A DNA stretch of 64,000 nucleotides from Bacteroidales bacterium (GTDB lineage Bacteria > Bacteroidota > Bacteroidia > Bacteroidales > WCHB1-69). Made by a program: the position numbers and the translations under genes. The notes below the pieces were generated by a model. It did not search any database, was not told the DNA's origin, and worked only from the letters and a program-made list of their open reading frames with translations. Positions 1-12,919 of this stretch are shown here, in pieces. The stretch's first letter is position 1; the number at the start of each line of letters is the position of its first letter. The stretch is from NCBI GenBank assembly GCA_016285145.1, contig JAEEQE010000011.1:363-64362 (forward strand). Reading direction: 5' to 3'.

Positions 1-715
1 CATTATATTCTTCGACAAGAATAAGCCCGAAGAGCGTAAGAACAAGGTGCTGATGGTGTATGCCGCCAAGAAAGGCTGGTACCGCGAAGAGGCCAACATG
101 AGCGTATTGGAGCCACAGGATGTGTTGCGCATTTCCACTATGCTCGAAAGCTGGGGCGATGTTGAAAAGGCTCAGAAATGGATTGCACAGCAAAAGAACA
201 GGCTTCATAATCAGATTGACGAAGAACTCGTTTTTCAACTGTCTGAGGTAGAGAACGACACGGCGGAAGAGATGGCCAAGATGCGCGACAGATTGGCAAA
301 AGCGGAATCAACCATAAAAGAGAAAGAGGCTTTAGGCAAGAAAACGACGGCAAGTGAGAGAAAAGCAGTGGAAACAGCGCAGAAGGCTTTAGAAAAGCTG
401 ACTTCCGACAAGACTGCCCGCGAAACAGCCTTCCGGGAAAAAGCTGAAAAAATTCGTCAAGCCATTGCCAATGTGGAGACCGAACTGCTACAGATGTTCG
501 CCGACCCCGAACTGCGCAAGCGTTATTTCTCCATTGTGGATATGGACGAGATTGAGGAAAACGAGTTCAACCTCAATATTCCGCGCTATGTGGATACCTT
601 TGAGCCCGAGGAACAGATTGACCTGAAAGAAGCCATTGCCGATTTCCAAAAGGCGATGCAGACGGAATCGGATGTGGAGAAAGAGTTGGAGACACTGTTG
701 AAGAATTTACAATGA
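1..715 (+). CDS. hsdM: Type I restriction-modification methyltransferase subunit M, C-terminal part (5' end outside window)
   Basis: Frame is open from base 2 (IIFFDKNKPEERKNKVLMVYA...). C-terminal motif EIEENEFNLNIPRYVDTFEPEEQIDL is typical of HsdM; hsdS and hsdR lie downstream. Confidence 0.9.
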   Translation, partial: IIFFDKNKPEERKNKVLMVYAAKKGWYREEANMSVLEPQDVLRISTMLESWGDVEKAQKWIAQQKNRLHNQIDEELVFQLSEVENDTAEEMAKMRDRLAKAESTIKEKEALGKKTTASERKAVETAQKALEKLTSDKTARETAFREKAEKIRQAIANVETELLQMFADPELRKRYFSIVDMDEIEENEFNLNIPRYVDTFEPEEQIDLKEAIADFQKAMQTESDVEKELETLLKNLQ

Positions 716-718
716 ACG

Positions 719-2539
719 ATGATGCAGTACGATATACATACTTTACAGTACCAGCCGGAGGGTCAGCAGTTTGACCGCAAGAGTTTTCGTGTTGAACCGA
801 AAGCCTTGGCGGTGATTGCCGTGGCTTTTGCCAATGCTGACGGCGGCGATATCGTAATCGGCATTGAGGATGACGGACGAATCACAGGCGTTAATGGAAA
901 CGAAGACCATTTGAATGAGCTTTTGCGTGTGCCATTTGACTTTTGTATTCCTTCGATCAATGCAGAAGCGCATTTTGTGGATTGTACGGATGATGGTGGA
1001 GATGCCAACCGCGTGTTAGTGATGCATATCGAACCCAGTATGCGCGTTCATGCCAACCAGTCCGACGAAGCTTATTATCGCGTTGGCGACAAGTCGAAAA
1101 AGCTGAACTTTGAGATGCGGATGCAGCTGTTCTATGCCAAAGGGGGACGCTATTTCGAGGACGAACCCGTGTATGGAGCTACGATGGACGACTTGGACCT
1201 TGATTTTGTAAAGCAGTATTGCGACAAGATTGGTTACGCCAAAGATGCCGAGACATACCTTCGCACCAACAAAGATTATGTTACCGCTGTAAACGGAGTG
1301 GATAAAGTTTCCGGGGCAGCTATCTTGCTGTTTGGCAAGGACCCGCAGAAGTTCTTCCAGCGAGCGCGAATCCGAATTGTACGTTATGATGGCGACGAGG
1401 AACGTTTCGGGCGTGAAATGAACGTGGTGAAAGATGTCTGGTTTGAGGGACGCATTGTAGAGATGACCCAAAAAGCCATTGATTTTGTGGATACACAGAT
1501 CAAGGAGTACAGCTTTTTGGGGGAGGATGCCCGATTTGTCACCATTCCCCAATATCCACCGTTCTGCTGGACAGAGCTCATCGTGAATGCCGTGGCCCAC
1601 CGCGACTACAGCATTTTGGGAACCGACATCATGGTGAAAATATTCGACCACCATTATGAGGTTGAAAGTCCGGGCATACTGCCGGGTATGGTGCGCATCG
1701 ACAATATCCGCCAGATGCATTTTTCACGCAATCCCAAGATTGTACAGTTTATGCAGCAGTACAAGTTGGTGAAGGAATTTGGCGAAGGTGTTGACCGTTT
1801 GTTCCGCGAAATGGCCGAGGCGGGAAATCCTGCGCCAATATTTAAGCAGGTGGACTTTATGGTGAAGGTTAGACTTAATTCTGCGTTACGAGAAGACAAT
1901 GTTACCAAAAAAAAGTATCATGATACTTTTTTGGACTCTCAAGAAAGTAACATGAAAAGTAACATGAAAAGTAACATGAAAAGTAACATGAAGAATGAGC
2001 TGCTCATTATCGAAACGATAAAGGCAAATCCATCTACTCCAATTCCCATCTTTCAAAAAATCACTGGATTATCACGAAGTGGTGTATGGAAGATTTTAAA
2101 CAGACTGCGTGAAAAGGGACTTGTCAAGCGTGTAGGCTCCGACAAGGATGGCCGTTGGGAAGTGTGTGAATATGAGTTAAATGCAAAGTCGGGAAGTGGA
2201 CCAAAAAGTACGCGAAATAGCAGGAGTAAAACCACAAAGACAAGCGACAAGCAAGCGATAAATTTAAAAACAGGCGATAAAGCAAGCGACAAACAGGCGA
2301 CAAATTCAAAAACAGGCGACAAAACAAGCGATAAACAGGCGATAATATTAGAATACTTGTCAAAGAACACCGATGTTACAACGAATCAAATGTCTGAGGT
2401 TCTAAAAATAAGCCTGTCGAGAACGCGCTATTATCTAAATTCCATGGTAAAATCCGGGCTAATAGTTGCATACGGTGCAAACAAGAACAGAACCTATAGA
2501 ATTAACAATGAACAATGTACAATTGATAATGAACAATGA
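719..2539 (+). CDS. AlbA_2 (Schlafen-like) + HATPase_c_4 + two C-terminal wHTH domains (RecG-C/'ATP-binding protein' family)
   Basis: EGQQFDRKS...AFANADGGDIVIGIEDDG (AlbA_2); ELIVNAVAHRDY, SPG, SRNPKI, EFGEGV (HATPase_c_4); two HTH-like ends (LSRSGVWKILNRLREKGLVKRVGSDKDGRW; ISLSRTRYYLNSMVKSGLIVAYGANKNRTY). Confidence 0.85.
   Translation: MMQYDIHTLQYQPEGQQFDRKSFRVEPKALAVIAVAFANADGGDIVIGIEDDGRITGVNGNEDHLNELLRVPFDFCIPSINAEAHFVDCTDDGGDANRVLVMHIEPSMRVHANQSDEAYYRVGDKSKKLNFEMRMQLFYAKGGRYFEDEPVYGATMDDLDLDFVKQYCDKIGYAKDAETYLRTNKDYVTAVNGVDKVSGAAILLFGKDPQKFFQRARIRIVRYDGDEERFGREMNVVKDVWFEGRIVEMTQKAIDFVDTQIKEYSFLGEDARFVTIPQYPPFCWTELIVNAVAHRDYSILGTDIMVKIFDHHYEVESPGILPGMVRIDNIRQMHFSRNPKIVQFMQQYKLVKEFGEGVDRLFREMAEAGNPAPIFKQVDFMVKVRLNSALREDNVTKKKYHDTFLDSQESNMKSNMKSNMKSNMKNELLIIETIKANPSTPIPIFQKITGLSRSGVWKILNRLREKGLVKRVGSDKDGRWEVCEYELNAKSGSGPKSTRNSRSKTTKTSDKQAINLKTGDKASDKQATNSKTGDKTSDKQAIILEYLSKNTDVTTNQMSEVLKISLSRTRYYLNSMVKSGLIVAYGANKNRTYRINNEQCTIDNEQ
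1944..1991 (+). repeat. In-frame 12-bp tandem repeat (AAAGTAACATGA)x4 encoding (SNMK)x4
   Basis: Read directly in the sequence. Confidence 0.95.
2240..2344 (+). repeat. Degenerate in-frame 42-bp repeat, about 2.5 copies (TSDKQAINLKTGDK / ASDKQATNSKTGDK / TSDKQAI)
   Basis: Visible in both DNA and protein. Confidence 0.85.
2500..2539 (+). repeat. Degenerate heptamer array (ACAATGA-like) forming the end of the AlbA gene
   Basis: aattaacaatgaacaatgtacaattgataatgaacaatga; an inverted copy lies at 5469-5493. Confidence 0.8.
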
Positions 2540-3822
2540 TGGAGAAACAGACTAAAATAGGAACTATTCCCGAGGGATGGAAAGTGAAGAAACTTAAAGA
2601 GGTTTTTCACATTAATGAATTGTCGTTGCCTTCGAACACGGACGCAAATTATAAGTTCAAGTATATTCCAATTGAATTTGTTTCAACGAATCATATTGAC
2701 TATGGGAATTGTGAAAGCTTTCGTTTTGTAGATGCGCCAGGAAGAGCAAGGCGTATTGTTAGAGAAAATGACATTCTCATTTCTGGTGTAAGACCAAATC
2801 TGAAGTCTTTTGCAGTATTTAAAAAGCCCGATGATAGCAATTGGATTTGTTCTACAGGTTTTTATGTGCTTACGGCAAAGGAAGAAAGTGACAATCTATT
2901 TTCCTATTATGAATTGTTAAGTGAAATCGGTGAAAGTCAATTTTATAGCTATGTGGCAGGTTCTAATTATCCTGCTATAGGAGATGGTGACATTCGCAAT
3001 ATGAAATTGATGTTTCCAAAGGACAAGTCCGAGCAATCCGCCATAGCCGCCATTCTCTCCAAGGTTGACGAGGCGATAGCAACAGTGCAAGCCAGCATAT
3101 CCGCCGCCGAGCGGTTGAAGAAGAGCCTGATGCAGAACCTCCTCACCGGCCGCATGAAACCCGACGGCACGCTTCGCAAAGAGGATGAGTTTTATGTGGA
3201 TGAGAAGTTCGGAAAAGTGCCCGTGGGGTGGGAGGTGAAGAGGATTGATGAGATTGCTGATTTTGTGCAATATGGATTGAATCAAGCTTCATCTGAAACT
3301 GGCAATATCCCAATGTTTCGCATGAATAACATTGTGAATGGTGAAATGCAAAACTATCCTTTGGTCTATGTGAACTTGAATGAAACCGCATTGTGTCAAT
3401 ACAAATTGGAAAAAGGGGATATATTGTTCAACCGTACCAATAGTATGGATCTTGTAGGCAAAGTGGGTGTCTTTAAATTGGACGGAGATTACGTATTTGC
3501 TTCCTATTTGATTAGAATTCGAGTCTCGAAAGATAACAATCCGTATTTTGTCAATTATGCATTGAATTCATATCCAATTCAATGTTCGTTAAGGTCGAAG
3601 GCGACACCAGCTGTAAGTCAAGCAAATATTAATTCTAAAAGTCTTAGGAATACTTCTATCATTATTCCAACGAATAAGAAGGAACAAGACGAAATTGTTT
3701 CTAGAATAAATAATGTTGAAAACGAAATAATTAACAAACAAAACAAAATCGTCGTCCTCGAAAGACTGAAGAAGTCATTGATGCAGAATTTGCTGACGGG
3801 GAAAGTGAGTATTAATAAATAG
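2536..3822 (+). CDS. hsdS: Type I restriction-modification specificity subunit S (two TRDs)
   Basis: IPEGWKVKKL...EQSAIAAILSKVD...LKKSLMQNLLTG is repeated as VPVGWEVKRI...EQDEIVSRI...LKKSLMQNLLTGK. Confidence 0.95.
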   Translation: MMEKQTKIGTIPEGWKVKKLKEVFHINELSLPSNTDANYKFKYIPIEFVSTNHIDYGNCESFRFVDAPGRARRIVRENDILISGVRPNLKSFAVFKKPDDSNWICSTGFYVLTAKEESDNLFSYYELLSEIGESQFYSYVAGSNYPAIGDGDIRNMKLMFPKDKSEQSAIAAILSKVDEAIATVQASISAAERLKKSLMQNLLTGRMKPDGTLRKEDEFYVDEKFGKVPVGWEVKRIDEIADFVQYGLNQASSETGNIPMFRMNNIVNGEMQNYPLVYVNLNETALCQYKLEKGDILFNRTNSMDLVGKVGVFKLDGDYVFASYLIRIRVSKDNNPYFVNYALNSYPIQCSLRSKATPAVSQANINSKSLRNTSIIIPTNKKEQDEIVSRINNVENEIINKQNKIVVLERLKKSLMQNLLTGKVSINK

Positions 3823-3833
3823 TTTAAAATATT

Positions 3834-4028
3834 ATGGGAGACAGTTTTAAAATGAAATGCCCTAATTGTGGCGCATTATTAAAGATTAATGAAACAGGAG
3901 AGTTATTTCCTGGAGGAAAAGAACGGGAAGAAGCTTATTGTCCAAAATGTCATCATGAAGTATATTCGGCAATGACATCCGGATTTGTAAAGGCATTTGA
4001 GATTTCTGAAGATGAGTTTAATGAATAA
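3834..4028 (+). CDS. Small Zn-ribbon protein (CPNC...CPKC), 64 aa, function unknown
   Basis: Two CxxC pairs; 11-nt gaps to hsdS upstream and to the dGTPase downstream. Confidence 0.7.
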   Translation: MGDSFKMKCPNCGALLKINETGELFPGGKEREEAYCPKCHHEVYSAMTSGFVKAFEISEDEFNE

Positions 4029-4039
4029 TCCTAATTGTA

Positions 4040-5392
4040 ATGGCTATGGATAAGTTTGAAACATCTATTATTGAACAGATTTCGAATATATATGAAAAAC
4101 TCCAGAATCCTGAATGTAAGGGTCGTGAATATACTGAAGATAGTGCTGATGGCAGATCCGAATATGCGAGGGATTATGCAAGAATATTATATTCATCGTC
4201 GTTTCGTAGGCTTCAAGGTAAAATGCAGATATTAGGAATTGAAACAACTGCATTTTATAGGAATCGATTGACTCATAGCCTTGAAGTGTCTCAAATTGCA
4301 CGATCTTTGGCGAAAACATTAGCATTGAAATGCGGAAAAGAAAATGAAATGTATTGTGACGAGGAATTATATCTTTTAGATGCGGCAGCATTGGCACATG
4401 ATATTGGACATCCTGCATTTGGACACAAAGGTGAACGGGTGTTAGATGAAATCGCAAGGCTCTACGGTCATAGGTTTGAAGGCAATGCTCAAAATTTTAG
4501 AGTTTTACGTAAACTGGATAGACATGGGTCATCTCCAAAAGGTCTTAACTTGACTCACAGAACATTACTCGCAATCAATAAATATATCATTGATGAAAAT
4601 ATTGAAAAGAAAGGTAATCCCAAAAAGTTCATGTATCATGAAGATTATTGTTTTATGGATGAATTTCGTCAAAAGAATGATATAAAAGATCGAACTCTTG
4701 ATGTCCAAATAATAGAAATTGCCGATGATATTGCTTATGCTGTACATGATTTAGAAGACGGTTTGGCTCAAGGATTGTTTACAATTGACGAGATCACACA
4801 TGAAATCAAGACATTTAAAGACGTAAAGGATAGAATAAAAAAAGAGGATATAGATAGAGCGGCAAATGAGTTTTGGGAGATTGTTAAAGGAATCAAAGAA
4901 GGTCTTGATAATGAAGAAAAGTCAACTACAATACAAGAATACTCACACCTGTTCAGAAAACAATTGACATCGAAATTAACTGACGATTTTGTAAGAAGTA
5001 TTGTATTTGAAAATTACGCAGATATAAATGAGAACGAATTATGCATGGATTCAATGCATAGAGTATTATGCTCCATTTTGTCTAAAATTATATTCAAAGG
5101 AGTAACCCGTAACACATCAATTGCTTTGTATGAATTGAAAGGCGAAATAATTATCAAATCTTTGTTCAATATCTTTGTTGATAAGAATATAAATAAGAAT
5201 TACTTGCTTTTACCACCTGATTACAGACCAAAAGAAAGCGACAGCCAAGAACAGATTGCTAGATGTGTTATTGATTATATTGCTGGTATGATGGATACTT
5301 ATGCGATTTCAGAATTTGAACGTTTAACAGGGGTGTCTTACGATAGTATTGATGTAGCTAAAATTCCAAATGTTAATAGAAAATCCTCATAA
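4040..5392 (+). CDS. dgt: dGTP triphosphohydrolase (HD family), probably defence-type
   Basis: RDYARILYSSSFRRLQGKMQ, RNRLTHSLEV, LAHDIGHPAFGHKGE, FEGNAQNFR, ADDIAYAVHDLEDG, DYIAGMMD; AT-rich and embedded in the RM locus. Confidence 0.92.
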   Translation: MAMDKFETSIIEQISNIYEKLQNPECKGREYTEDSADGRSEYARDYARILYSSSFRRLQGKMQILGIETTAFYRNRLTHSLEVSQIARSLAKTLALKCGKENEMYCDEELYLLDAAALAHDIGHPAFGHKGERVLDEIARLYGHRFEGNAQNFRVLRKLDRHGSSPKGLNLTHRTLLAINKYIIDENIEKKGNPKKFMYHEDYCFMDEFRQKNDIKDRTLDVQIIEIADDIAYAVHDLEDGLAQGLFTIDEITHEIKTFKDVKDRIKKEDIDRAANEFWEIVKGIKEGLDNEEKSTTIQEYSHLFRKQLTSKLTDDFVRSIVFENYADINENELCMDSMHRVLCSILSKIIFKGVTRNTSIALYELKGEIIIKSLFNIFVDKNINKNYLLLPPDYRPKESDSQEQIARCVIDYIAGMMDTYAISEFERLTGVSYDSIDVAKIPNVNRKSS

Positions 5393-5403
5393 CTAAAAAA
5401 TAT

Positions 5404-5463
5404 GTGTCACAACTGCACGAAAACAAGCCCGTAGAATCCAAAGTCACCGAATGGCTCACCCAA
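5404..5463 (+). pseudogene. Vestigial hsdR 5' fragment (20 codons)
   Basis: 5429-5463 matches hsdR 8283-8317 at 34/35 nt; translates GTG-SQLHENKPVESKVTEWLTQ versus MAKLSESKSVESKVTEWLTQ. Confidence 0.8.
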
Positions 5464-5468
5464 ATAAT

Positions 5469-5501
5469 AATTGTACATTGTAAATTGTTAATTGTCAATT
5501 G
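5469..5501 (+). repeat. Degenerate heptamer array (ATTGTnA-like), inverted relative to 2500-2524
   Basis: aattgtacattgtaaattgttaattgtcaattg; its first 25 nt match the reverse complement of 2500-2524 at 23/25. Confidence 0.8.
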
Positions 5502-5503
5502 AA

Positions 5504-6376
5504 ATGAAAACTTCCATCCGCTTTTATAACGATCGCGAGGTGCGGGCTGTGTGGGACGAGAGCCAGAACAAATGGTGGTTCTCGGCTGTTGACATTGTTG
5601 CCGCCATCACCGAAAGCCCCAATCCGAGAAAATATTGGAGCGTGCTCAAAACCCGACTGAGAAAAGCCGGAAACGAGTTGACTACAAAATGTAGCCAACT
5701 CAAAATGACCGCTGCAGATGGTAAAAAATACGCTACCGATTGCTTTTCTCAAGACGATATAACTGAATTGGTGAAACTTATCCCCAGCAAAAAGACTGCC
5801 GATTTCCTCGACTGGTTTACCTACAGCGACAACACCATCGACGGGCAGAGCCGCAAAAAAGCATACGAACTGTGGGAAAGCCATCTAGTGGAGGATAGCG
5901 ACGTGGGCTCCACCAAAGGCCTGCAACAAATCCATGCCTACCTGTTTGGCGGTTTGTACGATTTTGCGGGTCAAATCCGCACCAAGACCATTTCAAAAGG
6001 CGGATTCACATTCTGTGTGGCCCAATACCTGCCCCAAGCCCTGCAAACCATTGACAAAATGCCCGAAACCACCTTTGAAGAAATCGTGGACAAATACGTG
6101 GAAATGAACGTGGCGCACCCCTTTATGGAAGGCAACGGTCGCTCAACGCGCATCTGGCTCGACATGATCCTGAAAAAACGGCTGAAAAGTTGCATTGATT
6201 GGAGCAAGATCAACAAGAACGACTATCTCCATGCTATGGAACTAAGCGCCGCCGACACCACTCTCATCCGTCAGTTGTTAACCGGAGCCCTTACCGACAA
6301 GATTGACGACCGAGAATTGTTTATGAAAGGGATTGATTATTCATATTATTACGAGGAAACAAATCGAATAGAATGA
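5504..6376 (+). CDS. fic: BroN-domain/Fic protein adenylyltransferase (class III-like)
   Basis: Fic motif HPFMEGNGRSTR; C-terminal GIDYSYYYEE resembles the class III inhibitory helix; N-terminal VRAVWDE..KWWFSAVDIV...PRKYWSVLK is Bro-N-like. ATG at 5504 preferred over TTG at 5492. Confidence 0.88.
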   Translation: MKTSIRFYNDREVRAVWDESQNKWWFSAVDIVAAITESPNPRKYWSVLKTRLRKAGNELTTKCSQLKMTAADGKKYATDCFSQDDITELVKLIPSKKTADFLDWFTYSDNTIDGQSRKKAYELWESHLVEDSDVGSTKGLQQIHAYLFGGLYDFAGQIRTKTISKGGFTFCVAQYLPQALQTIDKMPETTFEEIVDKYVEMNVAHPFMEGNGRSTRIWLDMILKKRLKSCIDWSKINKNDYLHAMELSAADTTLIRQLLTGALTDKIDDRELFMKGIDYSYYYEETNRIE

Positions 6377-6402
6377 TTATTTTTGCAGAACAAACATAGC
6401 CT

Positions 6403-8052
6403 ATGACTATCGAAGATATAAGGAACAAATTTGAAGAACTCCGTTCGACTTCGGAGAATGAAACGGTTGAGTTCAAGGAGGCCAAGGAAAACTTTGATTT
6501 CAATACACTTGGCAAGTATTTCTCCGCTTTGAGCAACGAGGCCAATCTGCAAGGTGTGCGTTGCGGTTGGCTTGTGTTCGGGGTTCACGACAAGAAGCGA
6601 GGAGTGGTCGGAACCTCCTACAGAAACGACCCAAAGAAACTGCAATCGCTGAAACACGAAATTGCCCAAAAAACAACGGGAAATCTTACGTTTTCAAATG
6701 TTTTTGAATTAGAAGTGGAAGGCAAACGTGTTCTTTTGTTTGAGATACCCGCCGCACCGCAAGGCGTTCCGATTGCTTTTGACGGACATTTCTATGGGCG
6801 AGATGGAGAGAGTTTGGTTGCCCTCAACCTGCAAGAGATGGAAACCATACGGAACCAGAGATCATTTGACTGGTCGGCTCAAGTTGCAGAAGGTGCTACC
6901 ATGGATGATTTGGACAGCGAGGCATTGAACAAAGCCCGGTTTGAGTTCAGAAAGAAAAACCCCGACATTGCCGATGAAATCAACCACTGGAGCGATGCAA
7001 CTTTCTTGAACAAGGCAAGACTGACAGTCAACGGCAAGATTACCAATGCAGCCCTCATCCTTTTAGGGACACCCGAATCGGCAGTCCGTCTTATGCCTGC
7101 AATTGCACAAATGACTTGGATTTTGAAAGATGAAGATGGTATAGAAGTGGACTACAAGCACTTTTATCCGCCTTTCCTGATGTCGGTGGACAAGTTGCTC
7201 TCCCAAATCAGGAATATCACTTTCCGCTATCTTCCTGACAACACTTTGTTTCCGGACGAAGTGATGAAATACGACAATTATGTCATCCGAGAGGCTTTGC
7301 ACAATTGCATAGCCCATCAGGATTATTCGCTGAGTGAACGAATCAATGTGGTGGAAACCCCAGATTCATTGTTGTTTTCGAATGGAGGTGCCTTTATTCC
7401 ACAAACTATTGAAAATGTGATAGAAAAGGATGCTCCGCAAAGGTATTACCGCAACACCTTTCTATGTGTTGCAATGGTCAATTTGAACATGATTGACACC
7501 ATAGGAAGCGGCATTAAAAGAATGTTTGTCTGTCAAAGGAAACGTCTTTTCCCATTGCCAGATTATACTATAACAGAAAAAGAGGTTTCAGTAACTATCT
7601 ATGGCAAAGTTATTAACGAAAAGTATGTCAAGCTGTTGAAGGAAGACGAAAATCTTACACTTGCACACATTATTGCTTTGGATAAGGTTCAGAAACAACA
7701 GCCGATTGATGCTAAGATGGCAAAACTGTTGAAGTCAAAGACGTTGATTGACGGAAGGAAGGGAAATTACTTTTTGTCGGAAACAGCATCAGCACAAGTG
7801 GGAGAAATGGTAGAATATGTTCAGAACAAGGCTTTCAACAAGAAATATTACATTGATTTGTCATACGAACTCATTAAGAAGCAAAATGCAAAAGGAACAA
7901 CCAGAAAAGAGATAGATTCTCTTATCATTCCAAAATTGTCTAAGATCTTGAATGATGATCAAAAACGAAACTTTGTTAGAAATATGCTTCATCAAATGGT
8001 TGTAGAAGAGATGATTGTATCCAAAGAAAGACGGTATTATTTAAAGACATAG
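6403..8052 (+). CDS. AlbA_2 (Schlafen-like) + HATPase_c_4 + wHTH protein
   Basis: ENETVEFKEAK...YFSALSNEANL...WLVFGVHD; REALHNCIAHQDY; YRNTFL...MIDTIGSGI. Confidence 0.85.
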   Translation: MTIEDIRNKFEELRSTSENETVEFKEAKENFDFNTLGKYFSALSNEANLQGVRCGWLVFGVHDKKRGVVGTSYRNDPKKLQSLKHEIAQKTTGNLTFSNVFELEVEGKRVLLFEIPAAPQGVPIAFDGHFYGRDGESLVALNLQEMETIRNQRSFDWSAQVAEGATMDDLDSEALNKARFEFRKKNPDIADEINHWSDATFLNKARLTVNGKITNAALILLGTPESAVRLMPAIAQMTWILKDEDGIEVDYKHFYPPFLMSVDKLLSQIRNITFRYLPDNTLFPDEVMKYDNYVIREALHNCIAHQDYSLSERINVVETPDSLLFSNGGAFIPQTIENVIEKDAPQRYYRNTFLCVAMVNLNMIDTIGSGIKRMFVCQRKRLFPLPDYTITEKEVSVTIYGKVINEKYVKLLKEDENLTLAHIIALDKVQKQQPIDAKMAKLLKSKTLIDGRKGNYFLSETASAQVGEMVEYVQNKAFNKKYYIDLSYELIKKQNAKGTTRKEIDSLIIPKLSKILNDDQKRNFVRNMLHQMVVEEMIVSKERRYYLKT

Positions 8053-8206
8053 CAGACGTTTTCCAGACGTTTTCCAGATGTTTTCCAGATGTTTTCCAGA
8101 TGTTTTCCTAATGTTTTCCTAATGTTTTCCTAATGTTTTCCAGACGATTTCTAGACGATTTCTAGACGATTTCTAGACGATTTCTAGACGATTTTTAAAC
8201 GTTTTC
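8053..8206 (+). repeat. Tandem array of 14 x 11-bp units (CAGACGTTTTC / CAGATGTTTTC / CTAATGTTTTC / TAGACGATTTC variants)
   Basis: Counted directly; begins at the base after the AlbA stop codon. Confidence 0.95.
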
Positions 8207-8257
8207 TATTGTAATAATTTGATATTCAAAGAAATATAATAATACGTTTTTTTTGAT

Positions 8258-11200
8258 ATGGCAAAATTATCCGAATCCAAATCCGTAGAGTCCAAAGTCA
8301 CCGAATGGCTCACCCAATTGGGTTGGGAGTATCGCTCGGCGGAGGATTTGAAACCCTATAACCGCTTGCAGATGAACGCAGTGGTGGAGCCGATACTGGT
8401 GGAGCAGGTGATGGCACTGAACAGCATCAGCCAGCAGGCGGCCAAGATGGCGGTGGAGACTTTGCTCAACAACCTGCGCAATCCCATCCCCATCGAGGGC
8501 AACGAGAAGTTCCTCAACCAGCTCTGCGACGGCGTCAATATCACGATTGAACATAAAGACCGCACCATACGCTTCATCAACTTTGAGGATATATGGCAAA
8601 ACAGCCTTATCGTCACCAACCAATACGCGGTGCAACAGGTTCGTGCGGATATCTGCCTGTTGGTAAATGGCATACCGTTAGTGCCCATCGAGGCTAAGCA
8701 GTGCGCACGGCGCGGCACCAATTGGCTTGAAGGTGTGCGTCAGTTCCAGACCTACGACCGCCGCAGCGAGAAACTGTTTATGTGCCATCTCTTTGGCGTT
8801 GCTTGCAACGGAAGGCTGAGCAAATACGGCATTCCGGGCGCGTCGTCGTCCTATTTCAACGAATGGAAGGATTCGGTCATCGCCGACAAATACGACAATC
8901 CGTTGTTGCACCCCGAAAACGAGTTGTGCCGTGTCTATAAGGACGAAAACGATGGCCTGATGCACTTCGATGTAGAACGGCTGCCCAACGGACAGCTATT
9001 GGAGCAGATGAAGTTCGGCATCATCGGTTTGTTGCAACCTGAGCGTGTACTCGACATCCTGCAACATTTCATCGTATTTGAGCGCGACGACAACAAGATC
9101 ATCAAGAAAGTGGCGCGTTACCAGCAACTGCGTGCCGCCAACAAGATTGTGGATAGGGTAGTGCAGTCCGACAAGGCGCAAGGCGTGATTTGGCACACCC
9201 AAGGTTCGGGCAAGTCGCTCACCATGCTTTACACTGCCTACAAACTCCGCAAGACCGAAACCTTGAACGACCCGACCATTTTCATCGTGGTGGACCGCAA
9301 GGACCTGAAAGACCAGATGGACGACACCTTCTTCAACTGTGTGTTTCCGAATGCGAGGGTGGTGATGAGTATCGGCGACTTGAAAAGCATACTCCGAAAC
9401 CAACCCGCTGGCGTGTTCATCACCACCATTCAGAAGTTCAAGGAGTTGGGCGAGATCAAGGACGAGCGCGACAATGTCATCGTGCTCATCGATGAGGCCC
9501 ATCGTACGGAATACGGCGACTATCAGATGGAACTGCGTGCCGTGTTGCCTAACGCCAAGCGTTTCGCATTCACGGGAACGCCGATTCCCAAGACCCATCG
9601 GGAGTTTGGCATCAAGGATGAGAACGGCAAGATAGAGTATTATTTGGACAAATACAGCGTCATCGATGCCATCAACGACGGGGCCACCAAGCCCATCCGC
9701 TACACTTTGGGCCCTTCGCAGTGGTTCTTGGACAAGGAAAACCTCAAACAAGGCTATGCCGAAATCACTGCCGAGTTGGAGGAAGACCAGAAACGCTTAG
9801 TGGAACAACGCGTGCAGCCCTGGAAAACCCTGATGAAAAAGCCTGAGCGCATCAAGACCTTGGCCGCCGACATCGCCAAGGACTTTCGCGAACGTTTGGA
9901 GCCGCAAGGCTTCAAGGCGCAAGTGGTGGCCATCGACAAGGAGGCATGTGTGTTGTATTACAACGAATTGCTCAACTATTTCGACCCATCGGAAATCCGC
10001 ATCATCTTTTCCACAGGACAATACGAAACCAGTGAGCGTTACGACCTGTTTTCGCCGTTCTACATCGACGACAAGGAGCGCAAACGCCTGATCGACAACT
10101 TCAAGAAGCGGATTTCTGATGAAGAGATTGCCAAAGGCAACAACCTGAAAATCTTCATTGTCTGCAATATGCTGCTCACGGGATTTGACGCACCCATCGA
10201 GCAGACCATGTATCTCGACAGTCCTTTGCGCGACCATAACCTCTTGCAAGCCGTGGCACGCACTAACCGCCCGTATGACTATGGCGAGGGCGAAAACAAA
10301 CTCTCCAAAGAGTTTGGTCGCATCGTCGATTATGTGGGCGTATTCCAGAACTATAAGGAAGCCTTGAACTATGATCCCGAAGACATTGGTGAGTTTGAGG
10401 ATGTGGATGCTTTATTGGAGGTATTCCCCAAGGAACTCGATGCTGCTTTTGAGCCTTTTGCCGAAATCAAGTTGGAGGACAGTTACGAGTGCGAAATAGC
10501 TATCATTCGCAAGTTGAGCGAGATTGACCACGGGCTGTTTGAAAATCGTTTCCATCGCGTAGTGCAGCTTTGGGAAGCTATCAGTCCCAATCCAGGTTTG
10601 CGTCCGTTCCGTACAAAATACCTGTGGTTAGTGACTATTTACGAACTCTACATGGAGGAATTCCGTCGCGTGGATTTCGATGCCGAGTTCTATGCTGCAC
10701 AGACGCGCAAGTTGTTGGAAGAGAGTGCCACCTTGCTGGATTTCCGAGGCCATTTGCCCGAAATCGCCATTGATGCGGACTATCTCGCCAAATTGCAGGA
10801 AACTCGGTTGTCGCCTTCCGACAAAGCCGAGAAGATTATCCGCGACATTGAGACGATGATTCGCACCAACCAGAACAGTAGTGCCATCTATATCGAGTTT
10901 CAGGAACGCTTGGATGCGCTTATCCGCTTGAAGAACGCCAATGCCATTGAGATTGAGGGGCTTTTGAAGAAACTCAGCGAGCTTTACACCGAAGTGGATG
11001 AGGCGGTTGAAATCCCCAAAAAGATGGGTTTTGATGACAAAGGCACTTTTGAAATTTATCAGATTCTCAAAAATGAACTTCCGCATTTCGATGAATCATT
11101 GGCAAGAGAATTTGCCAACGAATTGGCAGCCAAAATTCAGTCGAGAATTTATATCGGTTGGCAGGAAGTCACACAGGAATACAACCGTTTGTTGGGCGAG

Positions 11201-11311
11201 GTGGCTTTATTGGCGGCCAACGAAAAATATGATGCCTTGGACGTGTACGGAAAAGACATTTTACATGAGACCATCATGGATTCTATTGTGAGAAATTTCA
11301 GTTTGAATTGA
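8258..11311 (+). CDS. hsdR: Type I restriction endonuclease subunit R
   Basis: Nuclease motif RADICLLVNGIPLVPIEAK; Walker A WHTQGSGKS; DEAHR; FTGTP; MLLTGFDAP; LQAVARTNR. Confidence 0.97.
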   Translation: MAKLSESKSVESKVTEWLTQLGWEYRSAEDLKPYNRLQMNAVVEPILVEQVMALNSISQQAAKMAVETLLNNLRNPIPIEGNEKFLNQLCDGVNITIEHKDRTIRFINFEDIWQNSLIVTNQYAVQQVRADICLLVNGIPLVPIEAKQCARRGTNWLEGVRQFQTYDRRSEKLFMCHLFGVACNGRLSKYGIPGASSSYFNEWKDSVIADKYDNPLLHPENELCRVYKDENDGLMHFDVERLPNGQLLEQMKFGIIGLLQPERVLDILQHFIVFERDDNKIIKKVARYQQLRAANKIVDRVVQSDKAQGVIWHTQGSGKSLTMLYTAYKLRKTETLNDPTIFIVVDRKDLKDQMDDTFFNCVFPNARVVMSIGDLKSILRNQPAGVFITTIQKFKELGEIKDERDNVIVLIDEAHRTEYGDYQMELRAVLPNAKRFAFTGTPIPKTHREFGIKDENGKIEYYLDKYSVIDAINDGATKPIRYTLGPSQWFLDKENLKQGYAEITAELEEDQKRLVEQRVQPWKTLMKKPERIKTLAADIAKDFRERLEPQGFKAQVVAIDKEACVLYYNELLNYFDPSEIRIIFSTGQYETSERYDLFSPFYIDDKERKRLIDNFKKRISDEEIAKGNNLKIFIVCNMLLTGFDAPIEQTMYLDSPLRDHNLLQAVARTNRPYDYGEGENKLSKEFGRIVDYVGVFQNYKEALNYDPEDIGEFEDVDALLEVFPKELDAAFEPFAEIKLEDSYECEIAIIRKLSEIDHGLFENRFHRVVQLWEAISPNPGLRPFRTKYLWLVTIYELYMEEFRRVDFDAEFYAAQTRKLLEESATLLDFRGHLPEIAIDADYLAKLQETRLSPSDKAEKIIRDIETMIRTNQNSSAIYIEFQERLDALIRLKNANAIEIEGLLKKLSELYTEVDEAVEIPKKMGFDDKGTFEIYQILKNELPHFDESLAREFANELAAKIQSRIYIGWQEVTQEYNRLLGEVALLAANEKYDALDVYGKDILHETIMDSIVRNFSLN

Positions 11312-11312
11312 T

Positions 11313-11966
11313 ATGCTGCCTGATAATTGCTCAGTCATACGTCGAGAAGTCAAGAATGCCCGTCTTCGTGTTCGCGAAGATGGCACTGTGCAGTTGTTTG
11401 TCCCTGTGGCGTTCACAGATGAGGATGTCGAAAAGCTTTTGGAGAAAAAGGCACAATGGATAGCCTCGAAACGGCAATTCTTTGAGCAGAAAACCAAGAT
11501 CAAACTGCGACGCAACGAAATATTGCTTTTTGGCAACCGTTATGCCTATTTTTATTCGTCCCAATATCAGAATAAGGTGGTCGTCAATCACGAAAGCAAG
11601 ACCATTCAGGCAAAACGTGACTTGTTGGATGCGAAAGTACAGGAAAAATGGCTGAAATCGGTGGCACGGAAGTATATCTTATCACGAGTCGAGACGCTTT
11701 CCGAGGCGCTGCTTCTGCCTTACAACAAACTTTACATTCGCAGTCAGAAACGGAAGTGGGGGAATTGCTCGTCTGAAAAAAACATCTCTATCAATTGGCG
11801 ACTGATTAAAGCTCCCGAGTTTGTCATTGACTATGTTATCATTCACGAACTGTGCCATACTGTCATTATGAATCACAGTGCCCGTTTTTACACTTTGCTT
11901 CGTTCACATTGTCCAGATGGAGAGCAAGCACAGGCGTGGTTGGATAAGTATGGGAATAGTTTGTAA
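11313..11966 (+). CDS. M48/YgjP (DUF45/SprT-like) zinc metallopeptidase
   Basis: KRKWGNCS, INWRLI, DYVIIHELCH..MNHS..FY; commonly found after hsdR. Confidence 0.88.
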   Translation: MLPDNCSVIRREVKNARLRVREDGTVQLFVPVAFTDEDVEKLLEKKAQWIASKRQFFEQKTKIKLRRNEILLFGNRYAYFYSSQYQNKVVVNHESKTIQAKRDLLDAKVQEKWLKSVARKYILSRVETLSEALLLPYNKLYIRSQKRKWGNCSSEKNISINWRLIKAPEFVIDYVIIHELCHTVIMNHSARFYTLLRSHCPDGEQAQAWLDKYGNSL

Positions 11967-11989
11967 ATAGTTGTTTCTCACATTTATCC

Positions 11990-12841: not shown

Positions 12842-12919
12842 ATTGTTGTTTATTTTATAGGGTGCAAAAATAAAATATTTAATCGTTAAACCGTACCTTT
12901 GCAGCCGAATTTTTCAGAC

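What the first reader, a model, noticed from the sequence alone, without database searches (positions are those of the whole stretch)
1..11966. Type I RM locus carrying five candidate back-up effectors (two AlbA/Schlafen proteins, Zn-ribbon, dGTPase, BroN-Fic)
Seen: the order is hsdM-[AlbA-HATPase-2xHTH]-hsdS-[Zn-ribbon]-[dGTPase]-[BroN-Fic]-[AlbA-HATPase-HTH]-hsdR-M48, all co-oriented and mostly closely spaced. Established: PrrC sits between hsdS and hsdR and fires when the RM enzyme is inhibited; dGTPases deplete dGTP as anti-phage defence; Fic proteins AMPylate targets; Schlafen domains can be RNases. Inference: a layered RM-plus-abortive-infection locus in which several effectors may guard the same RM complex. 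I do not recognise this combination as a named system.
Basis: partly seen in the sequence, partly recalled or inferred. Interest (0 to 1): 0.8.

Follow-up and report, generated by a model that had tools for sequence, protein, structure and literature searches.

The report
Restriction operon packed with defence cassettes
This is a bacterial type I restriction-modification operon into which several separate anti-phage gene cassettes have been inserted, a known kind of arrangement, but one of the inserted genes carries a short DNA repeat array after its end that may show what this common protein family binds.

Summary
It runs hsdM, Schlafen-GHKL-wHTH (Slf1), hsdS, 4-Cys Zn-ribbon, dGTPase, BroN-Fic, a second Schlafen-GHKL-wHTH (Slf2), hsdR and a YgjP-type metallopeptidase, all on the + strand, with every checked catalytic motif intact.

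This is not a new kind of system. Genes embedded in type I RM loci are a published source of defence candidates (Payne et al. 2024). BroN-Fic is PADLOC candidate PDC-S04, the dGTPase matches the PADLOC dGTPase model, and Schlafen-ATPase-HTH proteins linked to RM are already described.

The closest orthologous loci keep hsdM/hsdS/hsdR/YgjP but carry other cargo: a kinase+TPR pair (PDC-M71) in one, RhuM plus a TMEM43-like protein in another. Scars of hsdR and BroFic 5' ends mark past exchanges. BroN-Fic and Slf2 mostly occur outside type I loci. The cargo is therefore best read as independent cassettes in a hot spot, not five guards of one enzyme. Slf1 and the Zn-ribbon/dGTPase pair are the conserved units.

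Unexpected: an 11-nt x14 tandem array starts right after the Slf2 stop. Similar arrays follow 14 of 29 Slf2 homologues, and 10 of those 29 share a TTAGA core.

The parts
2..715 (+). hsdM, C-terminal 237 codons. The N-terminal part lies on contig C64 of the same assembly.
   Evidence: N6_Mtase PF02384 1.8e-8 and PADLOC MTase_I. The C64 start and C6 start overlap by 78 nt, and the frame continues across the junction. Motif IV reads NFPF in the N-terminal part on contig C64 and in all 3 orthologues.
719..2539 (+). Slf1: Schlafen (AlbA_2) nuclease domain, GHKL ATPase and two winged-helix domains, 606 aa. An in-frame 12-nt x4 repeat (SNMK x4) lies at 1944-1992.
   Evidence: Pfam SLFN_AlbA_2 2.9e-19, HATPase_c_4 5.7e-16, HTH_24 and MarR_2. 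PADLOC pAgo model PDLC02394 positions 61-452, 2.8e-37. E14/D19/K21 fit Ex4(E/D)xK (motif from PMC13056530). 71.5% identical in G035 and 72% in L071, at the same position.
2536..3822 (+). hsdS specificity subunit with two target-recognition domains. It overlaps the Slf1 stop by 4 nt.
   Evidence: Methylase_S 1.5e-33 in 2 stretches; PADLOC Specificity_I 7.5e-60. Only 38-45% identical to the hsdS of the related loci, mostly over the C-terminal two-thirds of the protein.
3834..4028 (+). Small 4-Cys Zn-ribbon protein (64 aa), paired with the dGTPase.
   Evidence: C9, C12, C36 and C39 are invariant in 11 sequences. Only 9 clusters were found among 5.8 billion proteins. A 48% identical copy sits in front of the 73% identical dGTPase in metagenome contig L071.
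4040..5392 (+). dGTPase-family HD phosphohydrolase (450 aa), GC 0.33.
   Evidence: PADLOC dGTPase 5.8e-106. TIGR01353 329 bits (cut-off 152). NF041026 antiphage_dGTPase 282 bits, below its cut-off of 400. H79, H120, D121 and D229 are invariant in a 30-sequence alignment. It is the only copy in the genome at E<1e-5. The best relative in 400 genomes of the order is 44% identical.
5402..5470 (+). Decayed copy of the hsdR 5' end (a scar).
   Evidence: 5402-5446 against 8256-8300: 73% over 45 nt. Sequence read. A like remnant (31 codons) lies in front of BroFic in G014.
5469..5505 (+). AT-rich AATTGTA-repeat leader in front of BroN-Fic. It is the right arm of an inverted repeat whose left arm is 2500-2524.
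   Evidence: TRF 7 nt x5.4. Inverted repeat of 25 nt, 92% complementary. The same leader precedes hsdR in G035. It is a common motif in metagenomes, with depth spikes and loose ends at 5468-5501.
5504..6376 (+). BroN-Fic: Bro-N domain fused to a class III (NmFic-like) Fic AMP-transferase. An alternative TTG start lies at 5492.
   Evidence: PADLOC PDC-S04 3.1e-150; NF046029 268 bits; Fic and Bro-N Pfam. NmFic structure 5CKL 7.6e-65, with HPFMEGNGRSTR and C-terminal SYYYEE.
6403..8052 (+). Slf2: second Schlafen-GHKL protein (549 aa) with two modelled C-terminal winged-helix modules.
   Evidence: Pfam. E18, E23, K25 and the GHKL residues N301, D307, G368, G370 are invariant or nearly so in 19 homologues. 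Model pLDDT 84. Foldseek gives 3LMM at 6.5e-25, plus SLFN11/13/14 and PDK kinases. Only 25% identical to Slf1 over 227 residues.
8053..8206 (+). Tandem array, 11 nt x14 (CAGACGTTTTC and variants). It starts 1 nt after the Slf2 stop and ends 51 nt before hsdR.
   Evidence: TRF score 140. It is the only run of 4 or more such cores at 10-12 nt spacing in the 2.73 Mb genome. Like arrays follow 14 of 29 Slf2 homologues against 12 of 94 other long ORFs. Copy number differs in metagenome contigs.
8258..11311 (+). hsdR restriction/translocase subunit (1017 aa).
   Evidence: HSDR_N 2.1e-30, SWI2_SNF2 3.1e-63, T1R_D3-like; TIGR00348 539 bits. GSGKS and DEAH motifs read. 88% identical in G035.
11313..11966 (+). 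YgjP-like Zn metallopeptidase (217 aa), 1 nt after hsdR.
   Evidence: PF01863 8.2e-51. HELCH motif. It follows hsdR also in G035, G006 and G403.

Best explanation
The stretch is one type I restriction-modification operon (hsdM-hsdS-hsdR plus a YgjP-type peptidase). Its inner gaps serve as a landing place for independently mobile defence cassettes. I count four cassettes.

1. Slf1 lies between hsdM and hsdS, coupled to hsdS by a 4-nt overlap.
2. A low-GC pair, Zn-ribbon plus dGTPase.
3. BroN-Fic.
4. Slf2 with a 3' repeat array.

Shown here: the genes, their intact motifs, the cargo swaps between orthologous loci, and the recombination scars.

Inferred from the families:
- The RM enzyme cuts unmethylated DNA.
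- The two Schlafen-GHKL proteins would oligomerise on ATP binding and cleave tRNA once triggered.
- The dGTPase would drain dGTP/dNTP pools.
- The class III Fic would AMPylate a target such as GyrB once its C-terminal inhibitory helix is released.

Each effector would act on its own cue. The layering would then arise from co-location and probably co-transcription, not from a shared sensor. Cassettes seem to be gained and lost by recombination that uses the conserved hsdR 5' end and the leader in front of it.
For: Domains and motifs.

Cargo turnover in the same frame:
- G035 (hsdR 88%, YgjP 79%, Slf1 71.5%) has PDC-M71A kinase (4.9e-153) plus PDC-M71B TPR (1.7e-177), and a 25-codon BroFic remnant, where the window has Znr-dGTPase-BroFic-Slf2.
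- G014 has a 701-aa TMEM43-like protein, RhuM/PDC-S05 (6e-140), an hsdR 5' remnant, then BroFic directly on hsdR.
- Metagenome contig L071 has hsdM-Slf1-hsdS-Znr-dGTPase.

Scars: 5402-5446 matches 8256-8300.

Composition: gene GC is 0.33-0.39 for hsdS, Znr and dGTPase, against 0.505 for the genome. The dGTPase has no match in 3 of 3 sampled congeners, and at best 44% identity in the order.

Metagenome contigs: joints 3809->5500 and 5462->8552 in run X5.

Same habit elsewhere: the two other type I loci of this genome also hold cargo. One holds PDC-S01 and a DUF4062-GHKL protein. The other holds an integrase, a second hsdS and an OLD-type ATPase. BroN-Fic (64%) follows hsdS in a Treponema plasmid type I locus.

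Autonomy of the cargo:
- BroN-Fic occurs nearly full length in about 60 of 400 other genomes of the order. Only 3 of 29 sampled loci have hsd-like neighbours within 1.5 kb.
- Slf2 homologues sit in type I, type III-like and BREX settings.

Literature: embedding as a general rule (Payne et al. 2024, sections read).
Against: No phage phenotype is known for three of the four cassette types:
- PDC-S04 showed no defence in one native-host test (10.1101/2024.12.20.629700, passage).
- The two histidine-kinase-type Schlafen fusions tested by Taboada et al. were not among the two that protected (PMC13056530).
- The dGTPase scores below NCBI's cut-off for the anti-phage subfamily (282 against 400).

Slf1 is kept with hsdM/hsdS in 2 of the 3 comparable related loci (G035 and L071). 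Slf2 homologues often lie inside methylation-based systems: 6 of the 10 downstream genes scanned are hsdR, Res helicase, Mod or PglZ. This leaves room for real functional coupling.

The comparison rests on few loci (3 orthologous loci, low-depth contigs). My tblastn panel misses distant hsd genes.
Confidence: 0.7

Rival explanations
1. Integrated guard system. One or more cargo proteins, most plausibly Slf1 and perhaps Slf2, are physically or regulatorily tied to the RM enzyme. They fire when it is blocked, as PrrC does with EcoprrI.
For: Slf1 lies between hsdM and hsdS with a 4-nt overlap. It is kept at that place in G035 and L071 at 71-72% identity, as well conserved as hsdM at 61-77%. In G229 a 48% homologue abuts hsdM. 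The Schlatpase preprint reports a Schlafen-ATPase module fused to a type I specificity subunit. Slf2 homologues sit directly upstream of hsdR, Res or PglZ genes in several systems.
Against: G014 has the orthologous RM without Slf1. Of 6 Slf1 homologues in the order sample, 3 have no hsd gene detected within about 9 kb. Among the listed PADLOC matches of the five cargo proteins none is named PrrC or RloC. The cargo set differs between orthologous loci.
Confidence: 0.15
2. Slf2 is mainly a DNA-binding controller. Its winged-helix domains bind the repeat array after its own gene and set the expression of the gene downstream (here hsdR), in the way C proteins time restriction genes.
For: The array fills the Slf2-hsdR gap (8053-8206). 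Arrays or iteron triplets also lie between Slf2 homologues and hsdR (L126, L128), a Res-type helicase (L129, Sulfitobacter and Phaeobacter plasmids) or PglZ (L127). The period is mostly 10-12 nt, near one helical turn. The shared core TTAGA occurs on the sense strand only: 10 of 29, against 1 of 29 on the antisense strand.
Against: Many arrays are followed by unrelated genes, or by no same-strand gene within 700 nt: 7 of 28 loci, 2 of them cut by a contig end. The nuclease triad and ATPase motifs are invariant in the family, so regulation alone does not explain the protein. No binding data exist.
Confidence: 0.25
3. The cargo genes are ordinary housekeeping or regulatory genes that merely lie inside the operon: a dNTP-pool dGTPase, a Fic regulator and COG2865-type transcription factors.
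For: Proteins of this architecture are usually annotated as regulators or ATP-binding proteins. NCBI names seen here are 'ATP-binding protein' and 'RNA-binding domain-containing protein'. PDC-S04 gave no defence in one test. 70 of 400 genomes in the order have dGTPase homologues.
Against: The dGTPase is foreign by composition and absent from the sampled congeners. The cargo is not conserved between close relatives. Neighbours of Slf2 homologues are led by RM families: ResIII 6, N6_Mtase 5 and Methylase_S 4 of 116 ORFs. Schlafen-domain proteins with other sensor domains do defend (PMC13056530 and PMC13462974).
Confidence: 0.07

Closest known systems
Genes embedded in type I RM, BREX and DISARM loci ('guilt by embedding', PADLOC PDC candidates; Payne et al. 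2024, bioRxiv 10.1101/2024.01.29.577857)
   Same: Co-oriented extra genes lie inside a type I RM operon. BroN-Fic matches PDC-S04 over its full length. The relatives' cargo matches PDC-M71, PDC-S05 and PDC-S01.
   Different: Five embedded genes in one locus. The two Schlafen-GHKL proteins and the Zn-ribbon match no dedicated PADLOC 2.0 model, only parts of pAgo, Aga and Csa3-type models. I could not see the paper's supplementary tables, which list the PDC families.
PrrC / EcoprrI (anticodon nuclease kept silent by a type I RM enzyme); recalled, not read here
   Same: An RNA-cutting effector gene sits inside a type I RM operon. tRNA is the expected target of Schlafen nucleases.
   Different: Different proteins: no listed PADLOC match named PrrC or RloC. 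No evidence of binding to, or release from, the RM enzyme. The cargo varies between orthologous loci.
Prokaryotic Schlafen-GHKL 'Schlatpase' proteins (pSlfn HisKinase-HTH class): 10.64898/2026.05.29.728809, PMC13056530, PMC13462974; solved relative PDB 3LMM
   Same: AlbA_2 domain with Ex4(E/D)xK, a PF13749 ATPase and C-terminal HTH modules. RM association is reported for this class.
   Different: For this class, the passages I read report neither a trigger nor a defence phenotype. They also do not mention the repeat arrays after the stop codon described here: 'tandem' and 'iteron' occur 0 times in the preprint, and 'repeat' occurs only in unrelated senses in PMC13056530.
Anti-phage dGTPase (dNTP depletion; Tal et al. 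2022, recalled)
   Same: HD-domain dGTPase family. Strong match to the PADLOC dGTPase model.
   Different: Below NCBI's cut-off for the anti-phage subfamily. It comes with a conserved small Zn-ribbon gene upstream, which, as I recall it, is not part of the described single-gene system.
NmFic, class III Fic AMP-transferase (PDB 5CKL and others)
   Same: The Fic core and the C-terminal inhibitory helix align over 176 residues, E 7.6e-65. The active-site motif is intact.
   Different: An N-terminal Bro-N domain of about 105 residues is added. The last motif residue is E, not G (SYYYEE).
ToxIN-type (type III) toxin-antitoxin pairs with repeat-RNA antitoxins; recalled
   Same: A tandem repeat array lies next to an endoribonuclease gene.
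   Different: The array is downstream, not upstream. The units are 9-12 nt, not about 36 nt. The predicted RNA fold is no better than shuffles (z -1.19). There is no Rfam match.

Membership tests
Type I restriction-modification system | HsdM: gamma-class N6-adenine methyltransferase with a SAM-binding motif and catalytic motif IV | tested here: met
   PF02384 matches on both contig parts. DPTCGSGGF is present. Motif IV reads NFPF instead of NPPF, with N, P and F invariant in the three orthologues and in this genome's two other HsdM proteins; the window's own N-terminal part reads NFPF too. Activity was not tested.
Type I restriction-modification system | HsdS with two target-recognition domains | tested here: met
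   Methylase_S in 2 stretches, 1.5e-33; PADLOC Specificity_I 7.5e-60 over residues 8-426.
Type I restriction-modification system | HsdR: N-terminal nuclease domain plus SF2 translocase | tested here: met
   HSDR_N, SWI2_SNF2, ResIII and T1R_D3-like; TIGR00348 539 bits against 285. Walker A GSGKS and DEAH read.
PADLOC candidate PDC-S04 / class III Fic (NmFic type) | Full-length match to the PDC-S04 model; Fic motif HxFx(D/E)GNGRxxR; C-terminal inhibitory helix (S/T)xxxE(G/N) | tested here: met
   PDLC04841 3.1e-150 over 2-291 of 292. HPFMEGNGRSTR. The C-terminus SYYYEE aligns to NmFic SYYYEG, with the last residue E instead of G/N (the motif wording is recalled).
PADLOC candidate PDC-S04 / class III Fic (NmFic type) | Anti-phage phenotype | not testable with these tools
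   One native-host study found none for a PDC-S04 gene (10.1101/2024.12.20.629700).
Anti-phage dGTPase | dGTP triphosphohydrolase family with HD metal-binding residues | tested here: met
   TIGR01353 329 bits against 152; PADLOC dGTPase 5.8e-106. H79, H120, D121 and D229 invariant.
Anti-phage dGTPase | Membership of NCBI's curated anti-phage subfamily (NF041026) | tested here: not met
   282 bits, cut-off 400.
Prokaryotic Schlafen-GHKL-HTH proteins (Schlatpase / pSlfn HisKinase-HTH) | AlbA_2 Schlafen domain with Ex4(E/D)xK | tested here: met
   Slf1 E14-x4-D19-x-K21; Slf2 E18-x4-E23-x-K25, invariant in 19 homologues. Motif from PMC13056530.
Prokaryotic Schlafen-GHKL-HTH proteins (Schlatpase / pSlfn HisKinase-HTH) | PF13749 GHKL-type ATPase following the Schlafen domain, then HTH module(s) | tested here: met
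   HATPase_c_4 in both. Slf1 HTH_24/MarR_2 x2. Slf2 by model and 3LMM match.
Prokaryotic Schlafen-GHKL-HTH proteins (Schlatpase / pSlfn HisKinase-HTH) | tRNA cleavage on activation | not testable with these tools
   Shown for other Schlafen architectures only.
PrrC/RloC-type RM-linked anticodon nuclease | ABC-type ATPase N-domain with a C-terminal anticodon-nuclease domain | tested here: not met
   Among the listed PADLOC matches of the five cargo proteins none is named PrrC or RloC. Pfam shows Schlafen/GHKL, HD, Fic and Zn-ribbon domains instead. The defining architecture is recalled.
PrrC/RloC-type RM-linked anticodon nuclease | Silencing by, and release from, the RM enzyme | not testable with these tools
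Type III toxin-antitoxin (ToxIN type) | Tandem repeats upstream of the RNase gene that encode a structured antitoxin RNA | tested here: not met
   The array is downstream, with a period of 11 nt. Fold z-score -1.19; no Rfam match.

The most novel reading that the evidence does not exclude
Slf2-type Schlafen-GHKL-winged-helix proteins belong to the commonest class of bacterial Schlafens, for which the passages I read report no trigger. I propose that they recognise a short-period iteron array laid down directly after, and often overlapping, their own stop codon. The core resembles TTAGAC(G/A)A, the spacing is 10-12 nt, and the motif lies on the sense strand only.

The protein would be parked on this DNA, or on the matching 3' RNA, as an inactive oligomer. 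Alternatively it would use the array to control the restriction gene downstream. Either way, the tRNA-cutting kill switch would be tied to the state of its own locus.

The window's 11-nt x14 array between Slf2 and hsdR would be such a site. Its copy number varies between populations.
Probability: 0.35. Interest if true: 0.7.

Novelty: new member of a known kind. Interest (0 to 1): 0.42.

Why it matters
As first posed, the finding is one more example of defence genes nested in a type I RM operon. It is useful as a well-resolved case: four cassettes, visible recombination scars, and cargo swaps among congeners that probably live in ruminant guts (the runs that hold the stretch are recorded as bovine, sheep or unspecified gut metagenomes). 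It does not change the picture.

Two by-products could matter more.

First, the Zn-ribbon/dGTPase pair suggests a two-gene variant of the dNTP-depletion defence.

Second, the repeat arrays after Slf2-type genes offer a concrete, cheap test of what the winged-helix domains of the most abundant bacterial Schlafen class bind. The passages I read from the three recent Schlafen papers do not address this.

Tried and rejected
1. Complex prediction of the dGTPase (30-row alignment) with the Zn-ribbon (11 rows): verdict 'no answer', score 0.00 against a mark of 0.32. This is evidence neither for nor against binding.

2. Genome-collection scan with the Zn-ribbon: one 16-residue chance-like match in a Porcincola contig. 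Not informative.

3. The 39-nt similarity of 2500-2538 to three other places in the genome is low-complexity ACAATGA-type sequence inside T9SS sorting-domain coding regions. I rejected it as a meaningful repeat.

4. Inverted repeat 2500-2524 / 5469-5493 (25 nt, 92%) around the low-GC block, with a like pair in G035. I considered an invertible or exchangeable segment. The arms are 7-nt-period AT-rich leaders that are very common in the metagenomes (depth up to about 320 at 5469-5476 against 5-30 beside it). No strand-changing joint was listed, although only contigs, not reads, covered the place. Left open; not claimed.

5. Sigma-70 promoter and terminator scans. Terminator-like sites were at chance level (13 found, 13.1 expected), and the promoter model may not suit this organism. 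A recalled Bacteroides -7 motif, TAnnTTTG, gave 5 + strand matches in 12 kb, near chance by my estimate. No operon claim rests on these.

6. RNA reading of the array: no fold better than shuffles (z -1.19) and no Rfam family in 1-13000.

7. Raw-read run X21 gave 1 laid read, so starts, ends and inversions could not be examined.

8. My tblastn panel of hsd proteins found type I genes next to only 2 of 20 Slf2 homologues. Pfam scans of the neighbours showed that the panel under-detects RM genes, so the 2 of 20 figure is a lower bound.

9. The literature search for YgjP/COG1451 with type I RM gave nothing usable. The link is stated from my own four loci and from recall.

Full report
WHAT IS THERE.

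Window 1-11966 holds nine + strand genes:
- hsdM C-terminal part, 2-715
- Slf1, 719-2539
- hsdS, 2536-3822
- a 64-aa Zn-ribbon, 3834-4028
- a dGTPase, 4040-5392
- BroN-Fic, 5504-6376 (an upstream TTG lies at 5492)
- Slf2, 6403-8052
- hsdR, 8258-11311
- a YgjP-like peptidase, 11313-11966

The window starts 362 nt into contig C6. The N-terminal half of hsdM lies at the start of contig C64 in reverse orientation. The two contig ends overlap by 78 nt and the frame continues across them. A TolC-like gene lies upstream, so hsdM is the first gene of the locus.

Pfam, PADLOC and NCBIfam agree on every assignment. The figures are given in the observation check.

INTEGRITY OF THE PARTS (motifs read unless noted).

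- HsdR has GSGKS and DEAH.
- YgjP has HELCH.
- The dGTPase keeps the HD residues. H79, H120, D121 and D229 are invariant among 30 aligned homologues.
- The Fic part reads HPFMEGNGRSTR. It aligns to NmFic (PDB 5CKL) over 176 residues at E 7.6e-65, including the C-terminal SYYYE helix, with E in place of the final G.
- Slf1 has E14-x4-D19-x-K21 and Slf2 has E18-x4-E23-x-K25. This is the Ex4(E/D)xK motif given for prokaryotic Schlafens (PMC13056530, passages). In Slf2 these three residues and the GHKL residues N301, D307 and G370 are invariant in 19 homologues, and G368 nearly so.
- Slf1 and Slf2 are only distant paralogues: 25% identity over 227 residues.
- Pfam sees two winged helices in Slf1 and none in Slf2. 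An AlphaFold2 model of Slf2 (pLDDT 84, pTM 0.64) shows two helix-helix-helix-hairpin modules at 406-458 and 480-547. Foldseek aligns the whole model to the DIP2311 structure 3LMM (6.5e-25). It aligns the N-terminal and middle parts to SLFN11/13/14 and to PDK/histidine-kinase ATPase domains.
- HsdM has NFPF instead of NPPF at motif IV, plus long insertions. It reads NFPF in the window's own N-terminal part on contig C64 and in all three orthologues, so it is a lineage trait, not decay.

HOW IT COMPARES WITH WHAT IS IN PRINT.

Payne et al. 2024 (bioRxiv 10.1101/2024.01.29.577857; abstract and sections 10 and 17 read) report that type I RM, BREX and DISARM systems frequently contain embedded genes. 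They derived 145 PADLOC 'PDC' candidates from such genes and name PrrC as an almost exclusively type-I-embedded system. BroN-Fic is their PDC-S04.

Schlafen+GHKL ('Schlatpase') proteins, mostly with a C-terminal HTH, make up 58.6% of 103,533 prokaryotic Schlafen proteins. An exchange of this module with a type I specificity subunit is described (10.64898/2026.05.29.728809, passages). Schlafen-ATPase-DNA-binding proteins 'tightly associated' with RM and BREX are reported in PMC13462974 (passage).

Defence is not shown for these particular kinds:
- One PDC-S04 gene gave no protection in its native host (10.1101/2024.12.20.629700, one passage).
- In PMC13056530 the protecting constructs were the DUF262 and Ig-like fusions, not the histidine-kinase-type ones.

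IS IT ONE SYSTEM OR A COLLECTION? Comparative evidence favours a collection.

Among 59 other relatives searched with HsdR, 17 match at E<=1e-50. Only three hold orthologues: G035 88%, G014 about 70% in pieces, G006 61% and broken.

- G035 reads hsdM (77%) - Slf1 (71.5%) - hsdS (45% over 294 residues, 140-428) - PDC-M71A kinase - PDC-M71B TPR protein - a 25-codon BroFic remnant - hsdR - YgjP.
- G014 reads hsdM - hsdS - a 701-aa TMEM43-like protein - RhuM/PDC-S05 - a 31-codon hsdR remnant - BroFic - hsdR.
- A metagenome contig (L071) reads hsdM - Slf1 (72%) - hsdS - Zn-ribbon (48%) - dGTPase (73%), then ends.

DNA alignment shows that the frame (hsdM-Slf1 and hsdR-YgjP) is 78-80% identical between the window and G035, while the middle is unrelated.

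The window carries a decayed hsdR 5' end at 5402-5470, in front of the BroFic leader. The same AT-rich leader that precedes BroFic here precedes hsdR in G035. These scars fit gain and loss of cassettes by recombination at the hsdR 5' end.

The hsdS-Znr-dGTPase block has gene GC of 0.33-0.39, against 0.505 for the genome. The dGTPase has no match at E<=1e-30 in 3 of 3 sampled congeners. In the order, 70 of 400 other genomes match, the best at 44%.

Contigs of public gut metagenomes (coded runs) include one that joins 3809 to 5500, with Znr-dGTPase apparently missing. Another joins 5462 to 8552, with BroFic-Slf2 apparently missing. Each is a single contig, at depth 12.2 and 5.8, with the sequence between the two sides not known. 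They were laid at 90% likeness, so they may stem from relatives.

The two other type I loci of this genome are also loaded:
- WYL - hsdR - PDC-S01 - hsdS - DUF4062+GHKL protein - hsdM - RmuC.
- hsdM - integrase - hsdS - hsdS - OLD-type ATPase - hsdR.

THE CARGO FAMILIES ELSEWHERE.

BroN-Fic is very common in the order. 100 of 400 other genomes match at E<=1e-30. By my count of the table, about 60 of them carry near-full-length copies at 58-76% identity.
- In 29 loci with 1.5 kb flanks, my hsd panel hit 3.
- Among 52 flanking ORF segments, Pfam found Methylase_S in 2. N6_Mtase, SWI2_SNF2, EcoRI methylase and RhuM appeared once each, beside many housekeeping families.
- In a Treponema plasmid a 64% homologue follows hsdS inside a type I locus.

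Slf2 homologues occur in 30 of 400 other genomes at E<=1e-40.
- Among 116 ORFs around 20 of them, the commonest families are ResIII (6), N6_Mtase (5), DEAD (5) and Methylase_S (4). Eco57I, MmeI, type III methylases and BrxL also appear.
- I scanned the 10 longest of the 21 same-strand genes found within 700 nt downstream of 28 Slf2 homologues. Two are hsdR, one is a Res-type helicase, two are N6_N4 methylases, one is PglZ, two are Fic proteins and two are others.
- On Sulfitobacter and Phaeobacter plasmids a 46% homologue sits between a methyltransferase and a DEAD/DEAH helicase gene.

Slf1 homologues are rare: 6 of 400 at E<=1e-40. Of these, two are in or beside type I loci, one is 4 kb from one, and three have none detected.

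Slf2, and to a lesser degree Slf1, is therefore drawn to methylation-based systems of several types. That keeps a functional link possible. BroN-Fic and the dGTPase look autonomous.

THE Zn-RIBBON/dGTPase PAIR.

The Zn-ribbon family is tiny. Nine clusters at 73-95% identity were found among 5.8 billion proteins. None has a Pfam domain or a name. The four Cys are invariant.

The gene lies 11 nt upstream of the dGTPase, both here and, in diverged form, in L071. I read the two genes as one cassette, on the strength of two loci.

THE UNEXPECTED FEATURE.

Directly after the Slf2 stop codon lies a tandem array of 14 units of 11 nt, at 8053-8206 (CAGACGTTTTC and variants). It is unique in the genome. 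It is the only run of four or more such cores at 10-12 nt spacing on either strand of 2.73 Mb.

Arrays of different sequence stand at the same place after Slf2 homologues of other genomes. They have periods 11 (7 cases with the window), 10 or 20 (4), 12 (1), 9 (1) and 6 (2).
- 14 of 29 genes with a readable 3' flank have an array within 150 nt of the stop.
- The same holds for 12 of 94 other ORFs of 300 aa or more in the same loci. One of those is a further Slf2 homologue, L133, with a 47-nt x5.5 array.
- 0 of 27 Slf2 upstream regions have one.
- Fisher p = 1.4e-4. The genes are kin, so this overstates the case.

Several arrays begin inside the last codons. Many share a core. TTAGA occurs three or more times in the 270 nt around and after the stop in 10 of 29 loci on the sense strand. 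The figures are 1 of 29 on the antisense strand, 1 of 29 inside the gene and 1 of 27 upstream. Random windows give an expectation of 0.6 of 29. Spacings are mostly 10-12 nt.

The genome's own broken Slf2 paralogue on contig C62 is followed by TTTACGAGCAAA units. The alphaproteobacterial plasmid copies are followed by three TA(A/C)GAAAG-type units in the 61-nt gap before the helicase gene.

Metagenome contigs show the window's array shorter by 44 nt (depth 2.2, one contig) and by 11 nt (depth 16, one contig).

As RNA the array is not predicted to fold better than shuffles (z -1.19). No Rfam family matches.

I found no mention of such arrays in the passages searched in the Schlatpase preprint ('tandem' 0, 'iteron' 0) or in PMC13056530 ('repeat' only in unrelated senses). 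In the full-text search that combined Schlafen terms with 'tandem repeats', every listed Schlafen paper had 0 occurrences. This is not a complete literature check.

The simplest reading is a set of iterons for the protein's own winged-helix domains. What they do is inference: parking of an inactive oligomer, control of the downstream restriction gene, or slippage-prone tuning.

Slf1-family genes instead carry in-frame 12-nt repeats in the linker after the ATPase domain. They occur in the window and at five places in four other loci, with different units. Slf1-family genes have no array after the stop.

VERDICT.

The interpretation as a layered defence locus is reasonable but already a known kind. 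The specific claim of several effectors guarding one RM complex is not supported by the comparative data, and it remains open for Slf1 only. The locus is a new member of a known kind.

The repeat arrays after Slf2-type genes are the part most worth a bench test.

Limits:
- few orthologous loci
- contig-level population data only
- no expression data
- supplementary tables of the cited papers not seen
- statements on PrrC, ToxIN, C proteins, NmFic targets and Tal et al. 2022 are recalled, not read here

Noticed in passing
window 8053-8206, and loci L113, L123, L124, L126-L129, L132, L136, L138-L142, L145, L088, L176-L178: Short-period tandem arrays (mostly 10-12 nt; core often TTAGAC/TTAGTC/TTTACGA) start at or just after the stop codon of Slf2-type Schlafen-GHKL-wHTH genes in many genomes, including alphaproteobacterial plasmids. 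14 of 29 homologues have one, against 12 of 94 control ORFs. The motif lies on the sense strand only.
   Followed up: yes
window 5402-5470; L034 15559-15633; L037 16246-16338: Recombination scars. There is a decayed hsdR 5' end in front of BroFic here and in G014, and a 25-codon BroFic 5' remnant in front of hsdR in G035.
   Followed up: partly
window 2500-2524 and 5469-5493; L034 11684-11715 and 15711-15742: Inverted repeat (25 nt, 92% here; 32 nt, 78% in G035) made of 7-nt-period AT-rich leader sequence. It brackets the variable block that starts with hsdS. The motif is very common in gut metagenomes, so it may be a generic leader and not a recombination site.
   Followed up: partly
window 1944-1992 and 2234-2345; L034 11426-11505; L071 3684-3734; L080 10431-10518 and 12613-12688; L083 10728-10783: Slf1-family genes carry in-frame 12-nt tandem repeats (here SNMK x4) in the linker after the ATPase domain, with different units in each genome. 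The window also has a 42-nt x2.6 repeat between its two winged helices.
   Followed up: partly
contig C64 start (locus L089) and window 2-715; alignment A1: This hsdM lineage (about 680 aa in the orthologues) has NFPF instead of NPPF at motif IV, two charged insertions and a long coiled-coil-like insert. All are conserved in three orthologues.
   Followed up: no
G000 contig C26 (locus L086 3551-16123): A second type I locus reads WYL - hsdR - AAA_14/DUF4143 (PDC-S01) - hsdS - DUF4062+HATPase_c_4 protein - hsdM - RmuC. The GHKL protein sits between hsdS and hsdM, as Slf1 does, but has DUF4062 in place of the Schlafen domain. This looks like an effector-domain swap.
   Followed up: partly
G000 contig C42 (locus L087 3578-11816): A third type I locus reads hsdM - tyrosine recombinase - two hsdS genes - OLD-type ATPase/TOPRIM - hsdR, cut by the contig end. 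It looks like a shufflon-type specificity switch with an embedded OLD nuclease.
   Followed up: partly
G000 contig C62 384-1944 (locus L088): A Slf2 paralogue (about 40% identical) interrupted by a TGA, with its own TTTACGAGCAAA units after the stop.
   Followed up: partly
L145 8583-8783 and 10880-12379; L121 147-1319: Fic-domain genes or Bro-N fragments lie next to Slf2 homologues in other genomes: a Bro-N fragment upstream and a Fic gene downstream in G054, and a Fic gene downstream in G394. This hints at a recurrent Slf2-Fic neighbourhood like BroFic-Slf2 in the window.
   Followed up: no
loci L147-L175: BroN-Fic is highly conserved (58-76% identity) across about 60 of 400 genomes from many families of the order. 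It often lies within 1 kb of a contig end, which suggests a mobile or repeat-flanked gene.
   Followed up: partly
window 1 / contig C6 start and contig C64 start: The assembly breaks inside hsdM with a 78-nt overlap between the two contig ends. This may reflect strain variation in the RM locus within the sample.
   Followed up: no
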